Below, piece after piece: positions 1-14,600 of a stretch of DNA of 64,000 nucleotides; position 1 is the first letter of the stretch, and each line of letters starts with the position of its first letter. The stretch comes from Octopus vulgaris (taxonomy: Eukaryota). The stretch lies in NCBI GenBank assembly GCA_951406725.2, contig OX597842.1:19840001-19904000 (forward strand). The letters are read 5' to 3'. A program made the position numbers.

Positions 1-2619
1 ATTCAAGCATCAGAAATCTGAATTAAATATTAACAGAGCAAACTTACACAGACTAGAAAGGCACAGAAAATCAAAGGGGAGAATGTATGGTGTTACAGCT
101 CCTTTCTTGGCAATCGGGGTTACTTCATTGTTGGTAGATGTACCATCCATACTCACAAATAGGTCTCACTTTTTTTCACCAAAAATTTAGATAAAAATCA
201 GGGGTACAAACTATCCAATAGATATCACAGGGATCTGAAGTGGTGCATCGGAGGTCCATGGCATACCCTGGACCTGGGCTTTTCAGTTTTAAAATTGTTA
301 TGGAAACTTTTCTGCAATGTTTACTAGAAAGCAGAAACTGGAAGTTTGGTATTTGGTATTTTTTGACATCCAGTCATCCCAATCTTTAGTTTAAAAATTT
401 TGATAATTGCAAACCCTACTTACAAAGTTATAGTAAGAGTTATCAATAGGCGCAGAAGTGGCTGTGTGGTAAGTAGCTTGCTTACGAACCACATGGTTCC
501 GGGTTCAGTCTCACTGTGTGGCATGTTGGGCAAGTGTCTTCTACTATAGCCTTGGGCCGACCAAAGCCTTGTGAGTGGATTTGGTAGACAGAAACTGAAA
601 GAAGCCCGTCGTATATATGTATATATATATATGTGTGTTTGTGTGTCTGTTTGTCCTCCAAACATCGCTTGACAACTGATGCTGGTGTGTCTATGTCCCC
701 GTTACTTAGCAGTTCGGCAAAAGAGAACTGATAGAATAAGTACTAGGCTTACAAGGAATAAATCCTGGGGTCGATTTGATCGACAAAACGCGGTGCTCCT
801 GCATGGCCACAGTCAAATGACTGAAACAAGTAAAAAGAGAAAAAGAATATAACCCCCACACACACACACCTTGGTATTGACCCCCTCATCCTTTGCCCTT
901 GTGGCAAATAAAAGAAACCCTTATTATATACAACTATCAGCTGAGTTCATTGTGAAGATGGCCCCTCTACTTTCCTTCAACCAGGAAGGGTAATCAGTTT
1001 TTATCTGCTCAGGGCCCATTGCAAAAGGGATCATACAGTGGACATGTCTGAAAGGGCTGAAGACCAGCAATTGCCATTTTGTCAAAACCCTAATAAACTT
1101 TGTCAGGTTTCACTTGAAGAGGAAAATCAGGGTGGAGAGGTAAGTGCTGGCTTCCAAGCAGTTTGTTGAAAGGTGGGTGAGAGAGGTGAGCATTACCTGA
1201 GTGAATGGGCCTTCTCTCAAAGTGTACCTGTATATTGGAGAGGAAAGACCGGGAGAGGGCATCCACCCTGGTGGTCAGGGAGACCTTGGATTTACTGGGC
1301 TTTCGTAACGCGTAGCCCTTGACAGTCCCCCCACTATCAGGTCTCTTACTTTGAATTTCTTTTATTCTTTGTATGACTTTTTACATGCTAAAACCCACAC
1401 TGTACCCTCCCGAATGTTTTCCTTTGTGTTAGCCCTCTGTGGTTAATAAAGAAATTATTATAAATCATTTCTTACTCTTTATCTCCAAATCAATTTTTCG
1501 AACGTTAAGGTTGTCATCATCAAATATCCAAGTCAAACATTTCTTAGTTACTTTTTTGATCCAAAGCGTGGAGGTATCTCCATCCTGTGTCACTTTATAG
1601 TCAGGGCCATCAGCGCATGTCTTGTCACATTCATATTTATAATTGCGGCACATCCAAACCACCGGTCGTTTCATATAAGGTATTGTTATCGTAAGGGTGA
1701 GACATCCATTGAGCACAGCAATTCCTGAAATAATGAAATCAGTTAAGAAGTTTGCTTCCAAATCATATGTTCCCGGGTTCAGTCCCACTACACTGCACCT
1801 TGGGAAAGTGTCTTCTACTACAGCCTGTGTGGATTTGCTAGATGGAAACTGAAAGAAGCCCATTGTATGTATCTGTGTGTGTGTGTATGTATATGTGTGT
1901 GTGTATATATGTATATACATACACACTTGTGTGTTTCAAAGCCTTGTGAGTGTATTTGATAGATGGAAACTGAAAGAAGCCCTTTGTTTATATATATGTA
2001 TATATATATGTAAATAGAAAATTATTATTTCTAAGTCACTGAATGAGAAACATTCAGTAACATTACTCGAGAGTAAGGATTATTTGCCAACATAATATGG
2101 CAGTCCTAGTTAGGATGATTGTTACTGTTATCTAGCCCTAGGAAACACTGCCTCCAGCTGGGTATATGACACATTATCTATGTCCTATGGGATGCTAAAC
2201 TTCCTTGTTTGAAAATATAAGGATGCAGCTAGTGTGTCATATAGCCAGTTGGAGACGATGTTTCCTAGGGCTAAGAACAGTAACAATCGTCCAGACCAGG
2301 ACTGCCACATTATGTTGGCAAATAATCTTTACCCTAGAGTACTGTTACTCAATGTCTTTTGTTCAGAGATTTAGAAATAATTTTCTATTTTTTAGATCAG
2401 TGACTGTGTGTCACTTTGGAAAGTATATATTTTGGACAAGAGTTTAGTGGAGTCATCTCTAGCCGAGCAGTTATTCTGTGCTGATGAAGGGAAATAACAC
2501 AGAGACCATTGGTATGCAGATAGTGTGCTGTATAACCAGCTGGAGATGATGTTTCCTGAGACTAAATAACAGTACCATTCGTCCTAACCAGGACTGCCAC
2601 ATTATGTTGGCAAATAATC

Positions 2620-2657
<38 letters not shown>

Positions 2658-11600: not shown

Positions 11601-14600
11601 ACATCCATGCGTACACGTTAATAGAGAGGAAGCAAAGACTGAAAAATTTCAGACGGAGAATATTCAAGCATCAGAAATCTGAATTAAATATTAACAGAGC
11701 AAACTTACACAGACTAGAAAGGTACAGAAAATCAAAGGGGAGAATGTATGGTGTTACAGCTCCTTTCTTGGCGATCGGGGTTACTTCATTGTTGGTAGTT
11801 GTACCATCCATACTCACAAATAGGTCTCACTTTTTTTTCACCAAAAATTTAGATAAAAATCAAGGGTACAACCTATCCAATAGATATCACAGGGATCTGA
11901 AGTGGTGTATCGGTAGTCCATGGCACCTGGGCTTTTCAGTTTTAAATTTGTTATGGAAACTTTTCTGCAATGTTTACTAGAAAGCAGAAACTGGAAGTTT
12001 GGTATTTGGTACTTTTTTGACATCCAGTCACCCCAATATTTAGTTTAAAAATTTTAATAATTGCAAACCCTACTTACAAGTTATGGAAAAAAATTAAATA
12101 AAATATAAATAAAACTTACAGACAAATGTTACAAACAAACAGCAGAACAAGATCCATTTAGCCATGATCTGAAAAAATAATTTGCAAAATTTGCAAAATA
12201 ACAAAGTTTATAACCCAGGGTCCGAGGCTGGTCAGGCTGAGAAAAACAAACAGTCACAATATCATCAGTCACTCTTTAATAGATTTGTGGTCGAGCCTGT
12301 GGCATTGGAGATCTTATTCTTAACTATTTCAAATACTATAGAACGCTGTACAGTAGAGACAAGTGCAGTTTGAACTTGCACAAACACTTTTTGCTACAGC
12401 ATTTTCACGTCAAAATAAACGTTTTCTGAAGAAAATTCTAAATCATTTGAAACTTCTAACTGTGAACATTCTTCTTACTCTTTACTCTTTTACTTGTTTC
12501 AGTCATTTGACTGCGGCCATGCTGGAGCACCGCCTTTAGTCGAGCAAATCGACCCCGGGACTTATTCTTTGTAAACCCAGTACTTATTCTATCGGTCTCT
12601 TTTGCCGAACTGCTAAGTGATGGGGACGTAAACATACCAGCATCGGTTGTGAAGCAATGCTAGGGGGACAAACACAGACACACACATACATATATATGAA
12701 AGGCTTCTTTCAGTTTCCGTCTACCAAATCCACTCACAAGGCATTGGTCAGCCCGGGGCTATAGCAGAAGACACTTGCCCGATATGCCACGCAGTGGGAC
12801 TGAACCCGGAACCATGTGGTTGGTAAGCAAGCTACTTACCACACAGCCACTCCTGCGCCTTCTTGTATAGTTTTTCTGAAAATCCAACAGTTACAGATCA
12901 TGTCAGGTTCCCTGAAACTCCATGGTATTTCCTCGCATTTACAAACTTTGTTTTTTTCTTGGACTTTTGAATGACAACCCTCGTTCTAGTTCAATGCACT
13001 CAAGCACCATAACTCATGTTGCATTCAAAAATCATGCGTCCCCGAAGTCCATCCCCTCCTCACCGTGGTGGGGACACTGGCAACGGGTAGTGTCAGAGCT
13101 ATGCTGTCGGGAACTTCGGTTCCTTGTAGGGCCACCCAAGGCAGATTGGTCTTACACCGAGTGGTATTAGGCCCACAACCCGGCAGACGGTGCTCTGGTG
13201 AAAATCCTCGGAGTGTCTGTTTCAGCAACTGGCGGCTCCTCGGTCTTTGGGTTGTCTCTCTCTCTCTCCACATCTCCTAATGAGTTACCAGTAAGTTACA
13301 GATATTGATAGAGTCTTGAATTTACATTTTTAATGCTTAAAATAAGGAATTAGTTTTCACATTTTGTTTGTTCTTTAATCTATGTCTACATGTAATTCTG
13401 TGAAAGGTACACAGTGTCTGTGTGATATGCAAGACACAACAGCTAAATCTCCCTCATATCACCCATCTTTTCATGTGAAAATCACTCATCCTTTCATTTC
13501 ACCAAGAAAAACAAAAAAACAGTAGAAATTACATTTAAATATTTTCAAAAATTCATGGTGACACCTATTTCAAATGGTACCCTCTAAATTAAAACTACAT
13601 ACAAAAAAAGATAAAATAACGATTTTTATTGAGGAAAATTTTTGGAATGAAATCTTTTTGGAATGGTGGGTTTATGGTCGAGTGTGCACATTGGAGACCT
13701 CTGGCACCCTAGGGCCCTCAGCTGTATCCCTGCTCACAGCTATCGGGCAGAAATGGCTACCTGCATGTGCAAGCCCTGTGGGTCTCCATTGCCCACCTCT
13801 AGGGCAACTCCTTTTCTATTTTGTCTGCTGGGACGTTGAGGTGGTCTGAATTACAACAAACTGTATGTTCCATTCCTTAACCCTTTCTTTACCATATTTC
13901 TGTCGAGATGTTCTGTGTTTCTTTCAATTACTTTAAATATAACAAAGAATTTAGTAAAATAACTTAGTTATCATTAAGATAGTATTAGGAACATAAATTG
14001 TGATTAAGGTTTGGTGGAAGATTTGAATTCAAAACTTAAGAAAACAAGACATTTGTACTACAGAGCCAGAGGTGGTTTCGGTCGGGTTGGTAACAAAAGG
14101 GTTAATGTAAAATTTGAAGAGACAGATTTAAACTTTACACTGTTTCCGCCTCCTCCCCCTTTTTTTTTGAGTTTTATCAATTACTATACAACACTAAAGC
14201 AACTGCATTTTTTGTCTCTTTCTTTCTTCTTGCTGAATGAAAACAAATACCAAATTACAGGTATTTGTATAATTGTGGCCTTCCAGGTAGAATCCTGGTT
14301 TAAACAGTTCTTATAATTTCAGAAAATTTTTGCAACACACACAAATTAATATAATTATTGAAAAGACATAAAATGGATCATAAAATGAAATATCATCTTA
14401 ATTATTAATTTAAGAGAATCAGTATCAGAAAATAGCATATTGATATATTACTGATGTTCACCTTAATTTTACGAAATAATCTTTAATATATATCTTGTGT
14501 TTTTATTACAATACAATCCAATATTTACAACAGAATCTCTTCTTTTTGGACAAACCTTATAGTTGTGGCTTGATGCAATGGGAAGTTTCAAAAACCAACT

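What the first reader, a model, noticed from the sequence alone, without database searches (positions are those of the whole stretch)
1..12168. One signal-peptide exon feeding a tandem array of diverged, frame-compatible Ig-like cassettes
Seen: gene A has a single ATG/signal exon (12120-12165) followed by repeated two-exon cassettes (10374-10412 + 6761-7009; 3996-4034 + 1476-1724). The same duplication junction at ~416 shows that at least one more unit begins left of the window. The breakpoint falls ~35 nt inside the intron after the signal exon, so cassettes carry neither a signal exon nor a TM exon. All junctions are phase 1 with intact GT/AG. Cassettes can therefore be read in series (...DLEIK-S-FSSANIYKITQSG-IAVLN..., a 96-aa period), skipped or mixed. 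Only signal exon joined directly to an Ig exon gives a stop (T+GA). Inference: this is either a recently multimerised ectodomain or a Dscam-like system choosing among variable cassettes upstream of a shared TM exon, i.e. a candidate diversified cephalopod surface receptor.
Basis: partly seen in the sequence, partly recalled or inferred. Interest (0 to 1): 0.85.

Follow-up and report, generated by a model that had tools for sequence, protein, structure and literature searches.

The report
Octopus receptor gene with duplicated Ig-like cassettes
This is a real octopus gene in which a two-exon unit encoding one Ig-like domain has been copied in tandem, lengthening a surface protein of an uncharacterised octopod-only family; this is an ordinary way for such genes to grow, not a Dscam-style choice system.

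Summary
On the minus strand, one signal exon (12120-12165) is followed by two cassettes of 39 nt + 249 nt. All have AG/GT borders and phase 1-1. The cassettes lie in tandem units of 6.4 and 5.3 kb, 95.5-97.4% identical. The same hybrid-intron junction occurs at 5716/5717 and 431/432.

The window is Octopus vulgaris-like. A public O. vulgaris model reads these exons in series plus two more cassettes. O. sinensis models read the same cassette order, ending in a transmembrane exon.

The domain has no Pfam or PDB sequence match. It folds confidently as an Ig-like sandwich, and the mini-exon supplies the linker and strand A. The family was found only in octopods.

A one-domain paralogue with its own transmembrane exon lies at 56.2-63.9 kb. 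Similarity along the units is mosaic, which indicates gene conversion.

All 26 predicted O. sinensis isoforms carry 2-5 domains in series, so Dscam-like exclusive choice is not supported. Transcript proof for this locus is missing. Best reading: a multimerised ectodomain made by unequal crossing-over. It is already annotated as "uncharacterized" and is moderately interesting.

The parts
14556..14632 (-). Putative 5' non-coding exon of gene A (77 nt; AG before it, GT after it)
   Evidence: Several public octopus models read through this stretch upstream of the start codon. A near-identical copy lies upstream of gene B at 63827-63903. Its use in transcripts is inferred.
12120..12168 (-). Signal-peptide exon of gene A (ATG at 12165; 46 coding nt; ends in phase 1)
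   Evidence: The acceptor AG lies at 12169-70 and the donor is GT. It encodes a 15-residue hydrophobic leader. It is identical to the leader in public model P0074.
12085..12119 (-). Unique first ~35 nt of intron 1, not part of the repeated unit
   Evidence: alignment. Homology with the two junctions starts at 12084.
5717..12084 (-). Tandem unit 1 (6368 bp), holding cassette A
   Evidence: It is longer than unit 2 by about 1.1 kb of repeat insertions at roughly 7290-9000.
10374..10412 (-). Mini-exon A (39 nt, phase 1-1; LSRAQ type): linker plus strand A of the following domain
   Evidence: for borders and frame. for its role: the equivalent residues in the models are a low-confidence linker followed by a short strand.
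6761..7009 (-). Domain exon A (249 nt, phase 1-1): strands B to G of an Ig-like domain
   Evidence: It is 100% identical to domain D19 of P0074. Fold.
5700..5735 (-). Junction unit 1/unit 2 (breakpoint 5716/5717): end of a dispersed repeat joined to intron-1 sequence from nt ~35
432..5716 (-). Tandem unit 2 (5285 bp), holding cassette B
   Evidence: It differs from unit 1 at 163 of 4981 aligned non-exon sites.
3996..4034 (-). Mini-exon B (39 nt; FSSAN type)
   Evidence: It differs from mini-exon A at 7 of 39 nt and from gene B's mini-exon at 0 of 39 nt.
1476..1724 (-). Domain exon B (249 nt, phase 1-1)
   Evidence: It is 92.6% identical in protein to domain A. It is identical to domain D14 of P0074 and P0002.
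1..431 (-). Start of tandem unit 3 (junction at 431/432); the unit continues left of the window
   Evidence: Public models P0074 and P0002 continue with two further cassettes.
446..846 (.). Dispersed ~400-nt repeat that forms the left side of each junction (also at 5731-6130; many copies in the window)
   Evidence: Copies at 83-92% identity lie at 12481-12860, 19821-20202, 45.8-46.9 kb, 50.9-52.0 kb, 61718-62111 and elsewhere.
56229..63903 (-). Gene B, a single-domain paralogue. Non-coding exon 63827-63903, signal exon 61364-61409, mini-exon 59607-59645, domain exon 57597-57845, stalk/TM/tail exon 56229-56362 including the stop
   Evidence: All frames are open with AG/GT borders. It shows what a one-cassette gene of this family looks like, and where the TM exon sits relative to the breakpoint.

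Best explanation
Gene A encodes a type I membrane glycoprotein of an uncharacterised, octopod-restricted family. Its ectodomain is a string of Ig-like domains.

Each domain is encoded by a two-exon cassette. A 39-nt mini-exon gives the inter-domain linker and strand A. A 249-nt exon gives the rest of the sandwich. Both exons are phase 1-1, so any number of cassettes can be read in series.

The array grew by unequal crossing-over. The first event joined the intron after the domain exon, at the end of a dispersed repeat just upstream of the TM exon, to a point ~35 nt into intron 1. This copied mini-exon plus domain exon but neither the signal exon nor the TM exon. Later rounds between whole units added more copies with the same junction.

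Gene conversion among cassettes, and with the paralogue 49 kb away, keeps the introns alike and shuffles exon variants. The mature protein most likely carries four domains, a proline-rich stalk, one TM helix and a 7-residue tail. It most likely acts as a fast-evolving surface binding or adhesion molecule that needs a partner to signal.

Shown: the exons, phases, units, junctions, mosaic similarity, predicted fold and family range.
Inferred: the order of recombination events, in-series splicing at this locus, and the function.
For: Anatomy:
- One search gives exons, borders and phases.
- Searches give the units of 6368 and 5285 bp at 95.5-97.4% identity.
- One search shows the same junction twice, starting at intron-1 nt ~35.

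What a one-cassette gene looks like: gene B has signal, mini, domain and TM exons. The breakpoint in the units corresponds to a point in its last intron just short of the TM exon.

In-series reading by others:
- O. vulgaris model P0074 holds signal A, mini A, domain A, mini B and domain B letter for letter, then two more cassettes.
- O. sinensis LOC115225115 X10 holds the same cassette order (LSRAQ, FSSAN, FSSAN, FSSDS types), then the TM exon.
- All 26 predicted isoforms of the two nearest O. sinensis loci have 2-5 domains in series.

A spliced single-domain member exists on a 1067-nt contig (P0022). With kilobase introns, that contig must come from a transcript; this is my inference.

Fold:
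- The P0022 model has pLDDT 85.2 and pTM 0.71, with 8 strands and a TM helix.
- The listed best PDB fold matches are, with one unclear row (7wso_C), antibody V domains or I-set domains of obscurin, titin, MyBP-C and twitchin.
- The three-domain P0006 model shows three sandwiches, linkers with pLDDT below 50 at the first half of each mini-exon, and a TM helix.
- The nearest named Atlas clusters are V-set/Ig, at 0.87-0.89. These are leads only.

Gene conversion:
- The odd-one-out pattern among unit 1, unit 2 and gene B changes along the unit. It is 37/1/3 around the mini-exon and 5/5/27 in the domain exon (chi-square p = 1e-18).
- Domains A and B share four residues seen in none of the other 21 close domain sequences.

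Fast evolution:
- dN/dS is 1.19-1.65 among the three domain exons.
- Gene-B-specific changes number 27 of 249 in the exon against 16 of 628 in the intron just downstream (p = 2e-6).
Against: - No transcript of this locus was seen. All 24 proteins returned by the search with the three-domain query P0006, multi-domain relatives included, come from genome annotation.
- Both O. vulgaris models are plainly chimeric, with histone H2B at the front, a zinc-finger piece and the next gene behind. They are therefore weak witnesses.
- Predicted isoforms in clusters of near-identical paralogues can be artefacts of multi-mapped reads (my own knowledge).
- The fold evidence is a predicted model. Its best Foldseek E-value is only 2.4e-3, with 0 matches at E <= 0.001.
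- Single domain exons give no Pfam match, and the family profile finds nothing in PDB sequences.
- dN/dS is not significantly above 1 (Fisher p 0.35-1.0). It fits relaxed constraint as well as selection for change.
- Synonymous sites are also more diverged than the neighbouring intron (6 of 51 against 18 of 628, p = 0.006). This points to different histories of exon and intron rather than to selection alone.
- Variability is not concentrated in loops (p = 0.21).
- The function is not tested at all.
Confidence: 0.78

Rival explanations
1. Complex conjoined locus. The whole cluster works as one transcription unit with alternative 5' modules (signal exon, with or without its own domain), optional cassettes and alternative 3' ends. 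Each cell or tissue then makes a chosen subset of receptor forms. This resembles the variable first exons of clustered protocadherin or UGT1A genes, with cassette skipping added. It extends the best explanation rather than excluding it.
For:: the predicted O. sinensis LOC115225115 isoforms X1-X18 use several different leader or first-exon sets. Two of these carry their own domain, and all splice into the same LSRAQ or FSSAN mini-exons. They also use three different ends: the TM exon, a second TM-like exon, and a non-TM exon. Copies of that last exon lie in the window at 39528-39646 and about 36344-36446. All joins are frame-compatible. Gene B lies upstream of gene A on the same strand.
Against: All of this comes from computational isoform models. 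No transcript was seen here. A histone cluster, two zinc-finger ORFs and a transposase remnant lie between gene B and gene A, so 49 kb of read-through would have to cross other genes. The O. vulgaris models across this region are demonstrably chimeric.
Confidence: 0.2
2. Dscam-like mutually exclusive splicing. Exactly one cassette of the array is joined between the signal exon and the TM exon in each transcript.
For: The cassettes are homologous, diverged alternatives of the same protein part, and they lie in tandem between a single signal exon and (by orthology) a single TM exon.
Against: - 0 of 26 predicted isoforms of the nearest O. sinensis loci carry a single domain.
- Cassettes are 288 nt and phase 1-1, so double inclusion keeps the frame.
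- Introns are kilobases long, so there is no steric exclusion (coordinates).
- The 42-nt unique intron stretch has no docking-like complementarity above chance.
- Single-domain proteins of the family come from separate genes such as gene B.
Confidence: 0.03
3. Assembly artefact. Units 1 and 2 are two haplotypes, or collapsed paralogues, of a single cassette wrongly laid in tandem.
For: The units are very similar (95.5-97.4%). The region is rich in repeats. Passages of the O. vulgaris genome paper report a noisy-long-read assembly with 68.7% repeats (PMC10700109). I cannot show that the window is from that assembly.
Against: - The same non-homologous junction (repeat end joined to intron 1) occurs twice, almost letter-identically.
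- The mini-exons of the two units differ at 7 of 39 nt, while unit 2's equals gene B's at 39 of 39. That is not an allelic pattern.
- Non-exon divergence of 3.3% (163 of 4981) is about 2.7 times the 1.22% heterozygosity quoted in the passages of PMC10700109. Those passages also say that purge_dups was run.
- An independent assembly of the sister species has models with two successive FSSAN-type cassettes of different sequence.
Confidence: 0.06
4. Decaying duplicates. The extra cassettes are recent, selectively neutral or dying copies, and the working protein uses fewer of them than the sequence allows.
For: dN/dS is near or above 1 without significance. Variation is spread over the surface without hot spots.
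Against: All five exons in the window keep open frames and canonical splice sites. Core residues of the sandwich are invariant in all 23 close domain copies. The four-cassette order is shared with O. sinensis.
Confidence: 0.08

Closest known systems
Immunoglobulin-superfamily type I membrane receptors built of tandem Ig domains, one domain per phase 1-1 exon unit, which grow by exon duplication (exon-shuffling rule; recalled, not from a call)
   Same: Signal peptide, string of Ig-like sandwiches, stalk, single TM helix. Symmetrical phase 1-1 units that can be duplicated in frame. Variable domain number among paralogues: 1 in gene B, 4 by models in gene A, and 2-5 in O. sinensis.
   Different: - Each domain is split over two exons, with strand A on a 13-codon mini-exon.
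- There is no cysteine pair on strands B and F. An invariant E-C-x-x-x-C motif after strand C' takes its place as the conserved cysteine feature.
- No per-domain Pfam Ig match and no PDB sequence match.
- The cytoplasmic tail has only 7 residues.
Arthropod Dscam1 variable exon clusters (mutually exclusive splicing; mechanism recalled, not from a call)
   Same: Tandem arrays of diverged, homologous, frame-compatible exons that encode Ig-domain sequence of a surface receptor.
   Different: - Here whole domains, not half domains, are repeated.
- They are read in series in every available model.
- Inclusion of several keeps the frame.
- No docking or selector pairing was found in the one place testable.
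Clustered protocadherin / UGT1A loci (variable first exons spliced to shared downstream exons; recalled, not from a call)
   Same: In the O. sinensis models, several alternative 5' modules with their own leader join the same downstream cassettes and TM exon. The window has two leader exons with conserved upstream non-coding exons.
   Different: Each module here can also end in its own TM exon (gene B). The sharing is known only from predicted isoforms. The domains are Ig-like, not cadherin.
Gastropod FREPs and other invertebrate diversified IgSF immune molecules (recalled; only search listings seen)
   Same: Molluscan, Ig-like domains, multigene family, signs of gene conversion and fast change.
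   Different: No fibrinogen domain. Membrane-anchored rather than secreted. No sequence relationship was found. No evidence for somatic diversification.

Membership tests
Immunoglobulin superfamily (Ig-like domain) | Two-sheet Greek-key beta sandwich of 7-9 strands | tested here: met
   Predicted only. The P0022 model has pLDDT 85.2, and 94-97 over the domain, with 8 strands. The best PDB fold matches are Ig V-set and I-set domains, with TM-score by target mostly 0.4-0.67 and probability 1.00, but the best E-value is 2.4e-3. The three-domain model shows three such sandwiches.
Immunoglobulin superfamily (Ig-like domain) | Conserved cysteine pair on strands B and F, with a tryptophan on strand C | tested here: not met
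   The strand C tryptophan is invariant in 23 of 23 close copies. Strand B and strand F carry no cysteine. The invariant cysteines lie in an E-C-x-x-x-C motif after strand C'. In the close subfamily two more lie at the end of strand C and before strand F. Many accepted Ig-like domains also lack the pair (recalled).
Immunoglobulin superfamily (Ig-like domain) | Significant match to an Ig-clan sequence profile | tested here: inconclusive
   The three single domain exons give no Ig match at E <= 10. Whole multi-domain relatives pass the I-set sequence cut-off (35.8, 31.3 and 30.5 bits against 23.7), but only as a sum of weak pieces, with 0 stretches passing alone. The profile against PDB sequences gives 0 hits at E <= 10.
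Dscam-type mutually exclusive exon cluster | Exactly one exon of the cluster is included per transcript | tested here: not met
   0 of 26 predicted isoforms of the two nearest O. sinensis loci have one domain; all have 2-5 in series. These are predicted models, not transcripts.
Dscam-type mutually exclusive exon cluster | A device that enforces exclusion (docking/selector RNA pairing, steric limits, or frame loss on double inclusion) | tested here: not met
   Double inclusion adds 288 nt, in frame. Introns are 1.7-3.6 kb (coordinates). The unique 42 nt of intron 1 has a longest complement of 11 nt, which 45 of 200 shuffles reach. A docking site near the off-window TM exon could not be tested.
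Variable-first-exon cluster (protocadherin/UGT1A type) | Several first exons, each with its own promoter, spliced to shared downstream exons | not testable with these tools
   It is suggested by the predicted O. sinensis isoforms and by two leader exons with conserved upstream exons in the window. Promoter use and real transcripts could not be examined.
Octopod family of LOC115225115-like proteins (unnamed) | Leader, then 13-residue linker/strand-A segment plus ~82-residue domain with the P-x-M-x-R-P ... W ... Y-E-C-D-x-T-C ... W-x-F-x-D motif, then stalk and TM | tested here: met
   Window domains are 74-100% identical to public octopus members. They carry every invariant and near-invariant column of the family alignment that lies in the domain exon. 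Gene B has the full set of parts.

The most novel reading that the evidence does not exclude
The cluster is an octopod-specific diversification locus. Alternative leader-plus-domain modules, optional cassettes, alternative anchors and continuing gene conversion between cassettes together give individuals, or individual cells, different sets of Ig-like surface receptors. These would be used for immune or neuronal/self recognition. It would be an independent invention of a variable Ig-type receptor system in a mollusc.
Probability: 0.1. Interest if true: 0.8.

Novelty: new member of a known kind. Interest (0 to 1): 0.38.

Why it matters
The locus shows cleanly how a surface receptor gains domains. 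One unequal crossover between the first and last introns, at a dispersed repeat, made a frame-neutral two-exon cassette that has since been copied and shuffled.

The family is restricted to octopods as far as the searches reach. It is unnamed in Pfam, and no paper in the library mentions its RefSeq gene identifiers or turned up in my keyword searches. It therefore adds an uncharacterised, fast-changing Ig-like receptor family to a group of animals whose recognition molecules are poorly known.

It does not, on present evidence, open a new kind of mechanism.

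Tried and rejected
The peptides were then taken from window coordinates inside the script.
I read the region through scripts instead.
- Pfam on single domain exons gave nothing useful: one chance-level non-Ig hit at E 0.15.
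- The family profile against PDB sequences gave 0 hits.
- The profile search of the large protein set was swamped. Only the 8000 candidates sharing most words were scored, and 4 hits came back, all octopus or the unnamed P0022. It therefore says nothing about relatives outside octopods.
- The search for transcript-derived multi-domain proteins found only genome-annotation proteins.
- The test for hypervariable loops found no difference between strands and loops (mean entropy 0.63 against 0.70, p = 0.21).
- The test for positive selection gave dN/dS of 1.19-1.65, not significant.
- The docking-site test was at chance level.
- Rfam over the window gave only two histone stem-loops and nothing for the junction repeat.
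- Literature searches gave 0 papers for the five LOC identifiers and nothing on this family under the keyword sets. One preprint was opened and was irrelevant.
Exons were searched one by one, and the in-series reading was examined only through public proteins.
- The genome-contig collection (bacteria and archaea) was not searched as irrelevant.
- No octopus DNA outside the window was available, so the cassettes left of the window are known only from proteins P0074 and P0002.

Full report
**What is there**

- A leader exon has its ATG at 12165 and 46 coding nt ending in phase 1.
- Two mini-exons of 39 nt lie at 10374-10412 and 3996-4034.
- Two exons of 249 nt lie at 6761-7009 and 1476-1724.

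All have an AG before and a GT after, and all are open in the frame required by phase 1-1. Domain to mini gives Ser. Mini to domain gives Gly. Leader directly to domain gives TGA. From the same letters, every other join is open, including mini to mini, domain to domain and domain to the TM exon of the paralogue.

The leader exon begins 3 nt before the ATG, behind an AG. A 77-nt exon-like stretch at 14556-14632 has an AG before it and a GT after it. Several public models read through it, and it is conserved upstream of the paralogue, so it is probably a 5' non-coding exon.

**The duplication**

A self-comparison and a three-way alignment show two tandem units, 12084-5717 (6368 bp) and 5716-432 (5285 bp).
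- They are 95.5-97.4% identical in BLAST pieces.
- They differ at 163 of 4981 aligned non-exon sites.
- Unit 1 is longer through about 1.1 kb of repeat insertions.
- Positions 431-1 start a third unit.

One search shows that the two junctions are nearly letter-identical. On the right, the junction continues intron 1 from about its 35th base. On the left, it is the end of a ~400-nt dispersed repeat that has many copies in the window.

The unit therefore runs from just inside intron 1 to a point in the intron behind the domain exon. One identical junction in two places means one founding event followed by copying of whole units. This last step is inference.

**A paralogue that shows the ground plan**

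Its parts are:
- non-coding exon 63827-63903
- leader exon 61364-61409
- mini-exon 59607-59645
- domain exon 57597-57845
- last exon 56229-56362, encoding a proline-rich stalk, a TM helix and a 7-residue tail before the stop

It is a one-cassette version of gene A. Its introns are 96-100% identical to the units over long stretches. In its coordinates, the breakpoint of the units falls in the last intron, a few hundred bases short of the TM exon.

**Whose gene it is**

I searched the domain exon on its own.

It finds 14 proteins among longer sequences, all from Octopus. It also finds 25 cluster representatives among 1.84 billion proteins. Of those 25:
- 24 carry a name. All are octopods: O. vulgaris, O. 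sinensis, O. bimaculoides, and one from Argonauta hians.
- One, P0022, is unnamed.

The profile search meant to reach further was swamped and is uninformative. 'Octopod-restricted' therefore holds only at single-sequence sensitivity.

**How public models read the exons**

Public O. vulgaris proteins match the window's exons at 100%. Cutting them and the O. sinensis isoforms into leaders, linkers and domains gives four results.
- P0074 holds exactly leader A, mini A, domain A, mini B and domain B. It then holds two further cassettes, of FSSAN and FSSDS type.
- O. sinensis LOC115225115 isoform X10 has the same leader type and the same four-cassette order, followed by the TM exon.
- Both O. vulgaris models are chimeric, with histone H2B in front and a zinc-finger piece and the next family gene behind.
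- All 18 isoforms of LOC115225115 carry 4-5 domains, and all 8 isoforms of LOC115225116 carry 2-3.

The isoforms differ by alternative leader modules, skipping of one cassette or half a cassette, and three alternative ends. Mini-to-mini joins occur in 3 of 26.

These are computational models. A search aimed at transcript-derived multi-domain proteins found only genome-annotation entries. The single-domain member P0022 sits complete on a 1067-nt contig. Given kilobase introns, that implies a spliced transcript (inference).

**The domain**

- Single domain exons have no Ig match in Pfam.
- Whole multi-domain relatives pass the I-set cut-off only as a sum of weak pieces.
- The family profile finds no solved structure by sequence.

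With the family alignment, AlphaFold2 models P0022 at pLDDT 85.2, and 94-97 across the domain, as an eight-strand sandwich plus a TM helix.

Foldseek against the PDB gives no match at E <= 0.001. The listed best matches start at E 2.4e-3 with probability 1.00. Apart from one row with an uninformative name, they are antibody V domains, nanobodies and I-set domains of obscurin, titin, MyBP-C and twitchin. The Atlas lists unnamed mollusc clusters first (0.94, 0.92) and V-set/Ig clusters at 0.87-0.89, which are leads only.

The three-domain model of P0006 has pLDDT 77.4 and pTM 0.34. It shows three separate sandwiches, a TM helix, and low-confidence linkers that coincide with the first half of each mini-exon. 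The second half of each mini-exon forms strand A of the next domain. A cassette is therefore one structural domain plus its linker.

The canonical cysteines on strands B and F are absent. Invariant features are the strand C tryptophan, an E-C-x-x-x-C motif, and the inward-facing hydrophobic positions of each strand.

**How the copies evolve**

The relationship among unit 1, unit 2 and gene B changes along the unit.
- Around the mini-exon, unit 2 and gene B are almost identical and unit 1 is the outlier (37, 1 and 3 private differences).
- In the domain exon and behind it, gene B is the outlier (5, 5 and 27).
- The heterogeneity has p = 1e-18.

This is the signature of gene conversion or recombination between cassettes and between genes 49 kb apart.

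Domains A and B share four residues found in none of the other 21 close domain copies. At the positions where they differ, each keeps the states of its own cassette type.

The domain exon of gene B carries 27 private changes in 249 nt, against 16 in 628 nt of the intron just downstream (p = 2e-6). dN/dS among the three exons is 1.19-1.65 but not significantly above 1. Synonymous sites are also more diverged than the intron. A different history of exon and intron explains the data at least as well as positive selection. That history would be homogenised introns with exon variants kept or imported. Variability is spread over exposed positions and is not concentrated in loops (p = 0.21).

**Rival readings**

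*Dscam-like exclusive choice* is not supported.
- No predicted isoform has one domain.
- Double inclusion is in frame.
- Introns are long.
- The only unique intron stretch has no complementarity above chance.
- A docking site near the off-window TM exon could not be tested.

*A haplotype or collapse artefact* is unlikely.
- The same odd junction occurs twice.
- The two mini-exons differ at 7 of 39 nt, while one is identical to gene B's.
- Unit divergence of 3.3% exceeds the 1.22% heterozygosity given in passages of the O. vulgaris genome paper, which also reports haplotype purging (PMC10700109, passages only). I cannot prove that the window is from that assembly.
- The sister species has two successive FSSAN-type cassettes as well.

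*A conjoined, alternatively initiated and terminated locus* is suggested by the O. sinensis models. It remains open.

**What it probably does**

The protein is a glycosylated type I membrane protein. It has a flexible string of Ig-like domains and almost no cytoplasmic part. The tail contains a Y-x-x-hydrophobic word, which may be a sorting signal; this is my reading, untested.

It most likely serves as a binding or adhesion module that signals, if at all, through a partner. Its fast change and conversion fit recognition of variable ligands. This functional statement is inference.

**Comparison and novelty**

The phenomenon follows the textbook rule that phase 1-1 Ig-domain exons duplicate in frame (recalled knowledge). 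The particulars are new:
- a two-exon cassette with strand A on a mini-exon
- a non-canonical Ig-like domain that sequence profiles do not detect
- an octopod-only family

The library holds no paper with the five LOC identifiers, and the keyword searches found nothing on this family. The genes themselves are already in public annotation as 'uncharacterized', with the in-series reading. I rate it a new member of a known kind, of moderate interest.

Noticed in passing
window 56229-63903 (-): An intact single-domain paralogue (gene B) with its own leader, mini-exon, domain exon and stalk/TM/tail exon. Its mini-exon is 39 of 39 nt identical to mini-exon B of gene A, while its domain exon is only about 75% identical in protein.
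   Followed up: yes
window 23547-32293: A replication-type histone cluster between the two receptor genes: H2B 23620-23997 (-), H2A 24267-24644 (+), H3 27448-27858 (-), H4 28136-28447 (+), H2B 31269-31646 (-), H2A 31916-32293 (+). Histone 3' stem-loops lie at 23547-23592 (-) and 28476-28521 (+). The two H2B/H2A pairs give identical Pfam scores.
   Followed up: partly
window 35349-36035 and 38110-38820 (-); 36344-36446 and 39528-39646 (-): Two C2H2 zinc-finger ORFs (7-8 fingers each). Each lies downstream of a short exon-like ORF with an AG acceptor, ending in an N-P-x-Y word and a stop. O. sinensis isoform X4 of LOC115225115 uses the equivalent exon as a non-TM end.
   Followed up: partly
window 446-846, 5731-6130, 12481-12860, 45785-46912, 50871-51957 and others: A dispersed ~400-nt repeat whose inner 175-181 nt also forms tandem arrays of 5-6 units at 45.8-46.9 kb and 50.9-52.0 kb. 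One end of it forms the left side of the duplication junction. No Rfam family matches it.
   Followed up: partly
window 44100-45000 and 8885-9040: A very AT-rich low-complexity block (G+C 0.28 at 44-46 kb) that matches itself in both orientations. A 150-nt piece of the same kind lies inside the extra segment of unit 1.
   Followed up: no
window 49365-49991 (-): An ORF matching the C-terminal part of a piggyBac-type transposase domain (DDE_Tnp_1_7, E 7e-11), probably a transposon remnant.
   Followed up: no
public proteins P0074, P0002, P0014 (O. vulgaris): The deposited models over this region are chimeras. Histone H2B is fused to the receptor's non-coding exon and leader. A zinc-finger fragment and the next family gene are appended, and there is one direct domain-to-domain join that would leave a domain without strand A. 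The locus needs re-annotation.
   Followed up: partly
public protein P0031 (O. sinensis, 'zinc finger protein 239-like'): A model that fuses C2H2 zinc fingers to one domain of this family. This is either another annotation chimera or a sign that family members and zinc-finger genes are often neighbours.
   Followed up: no
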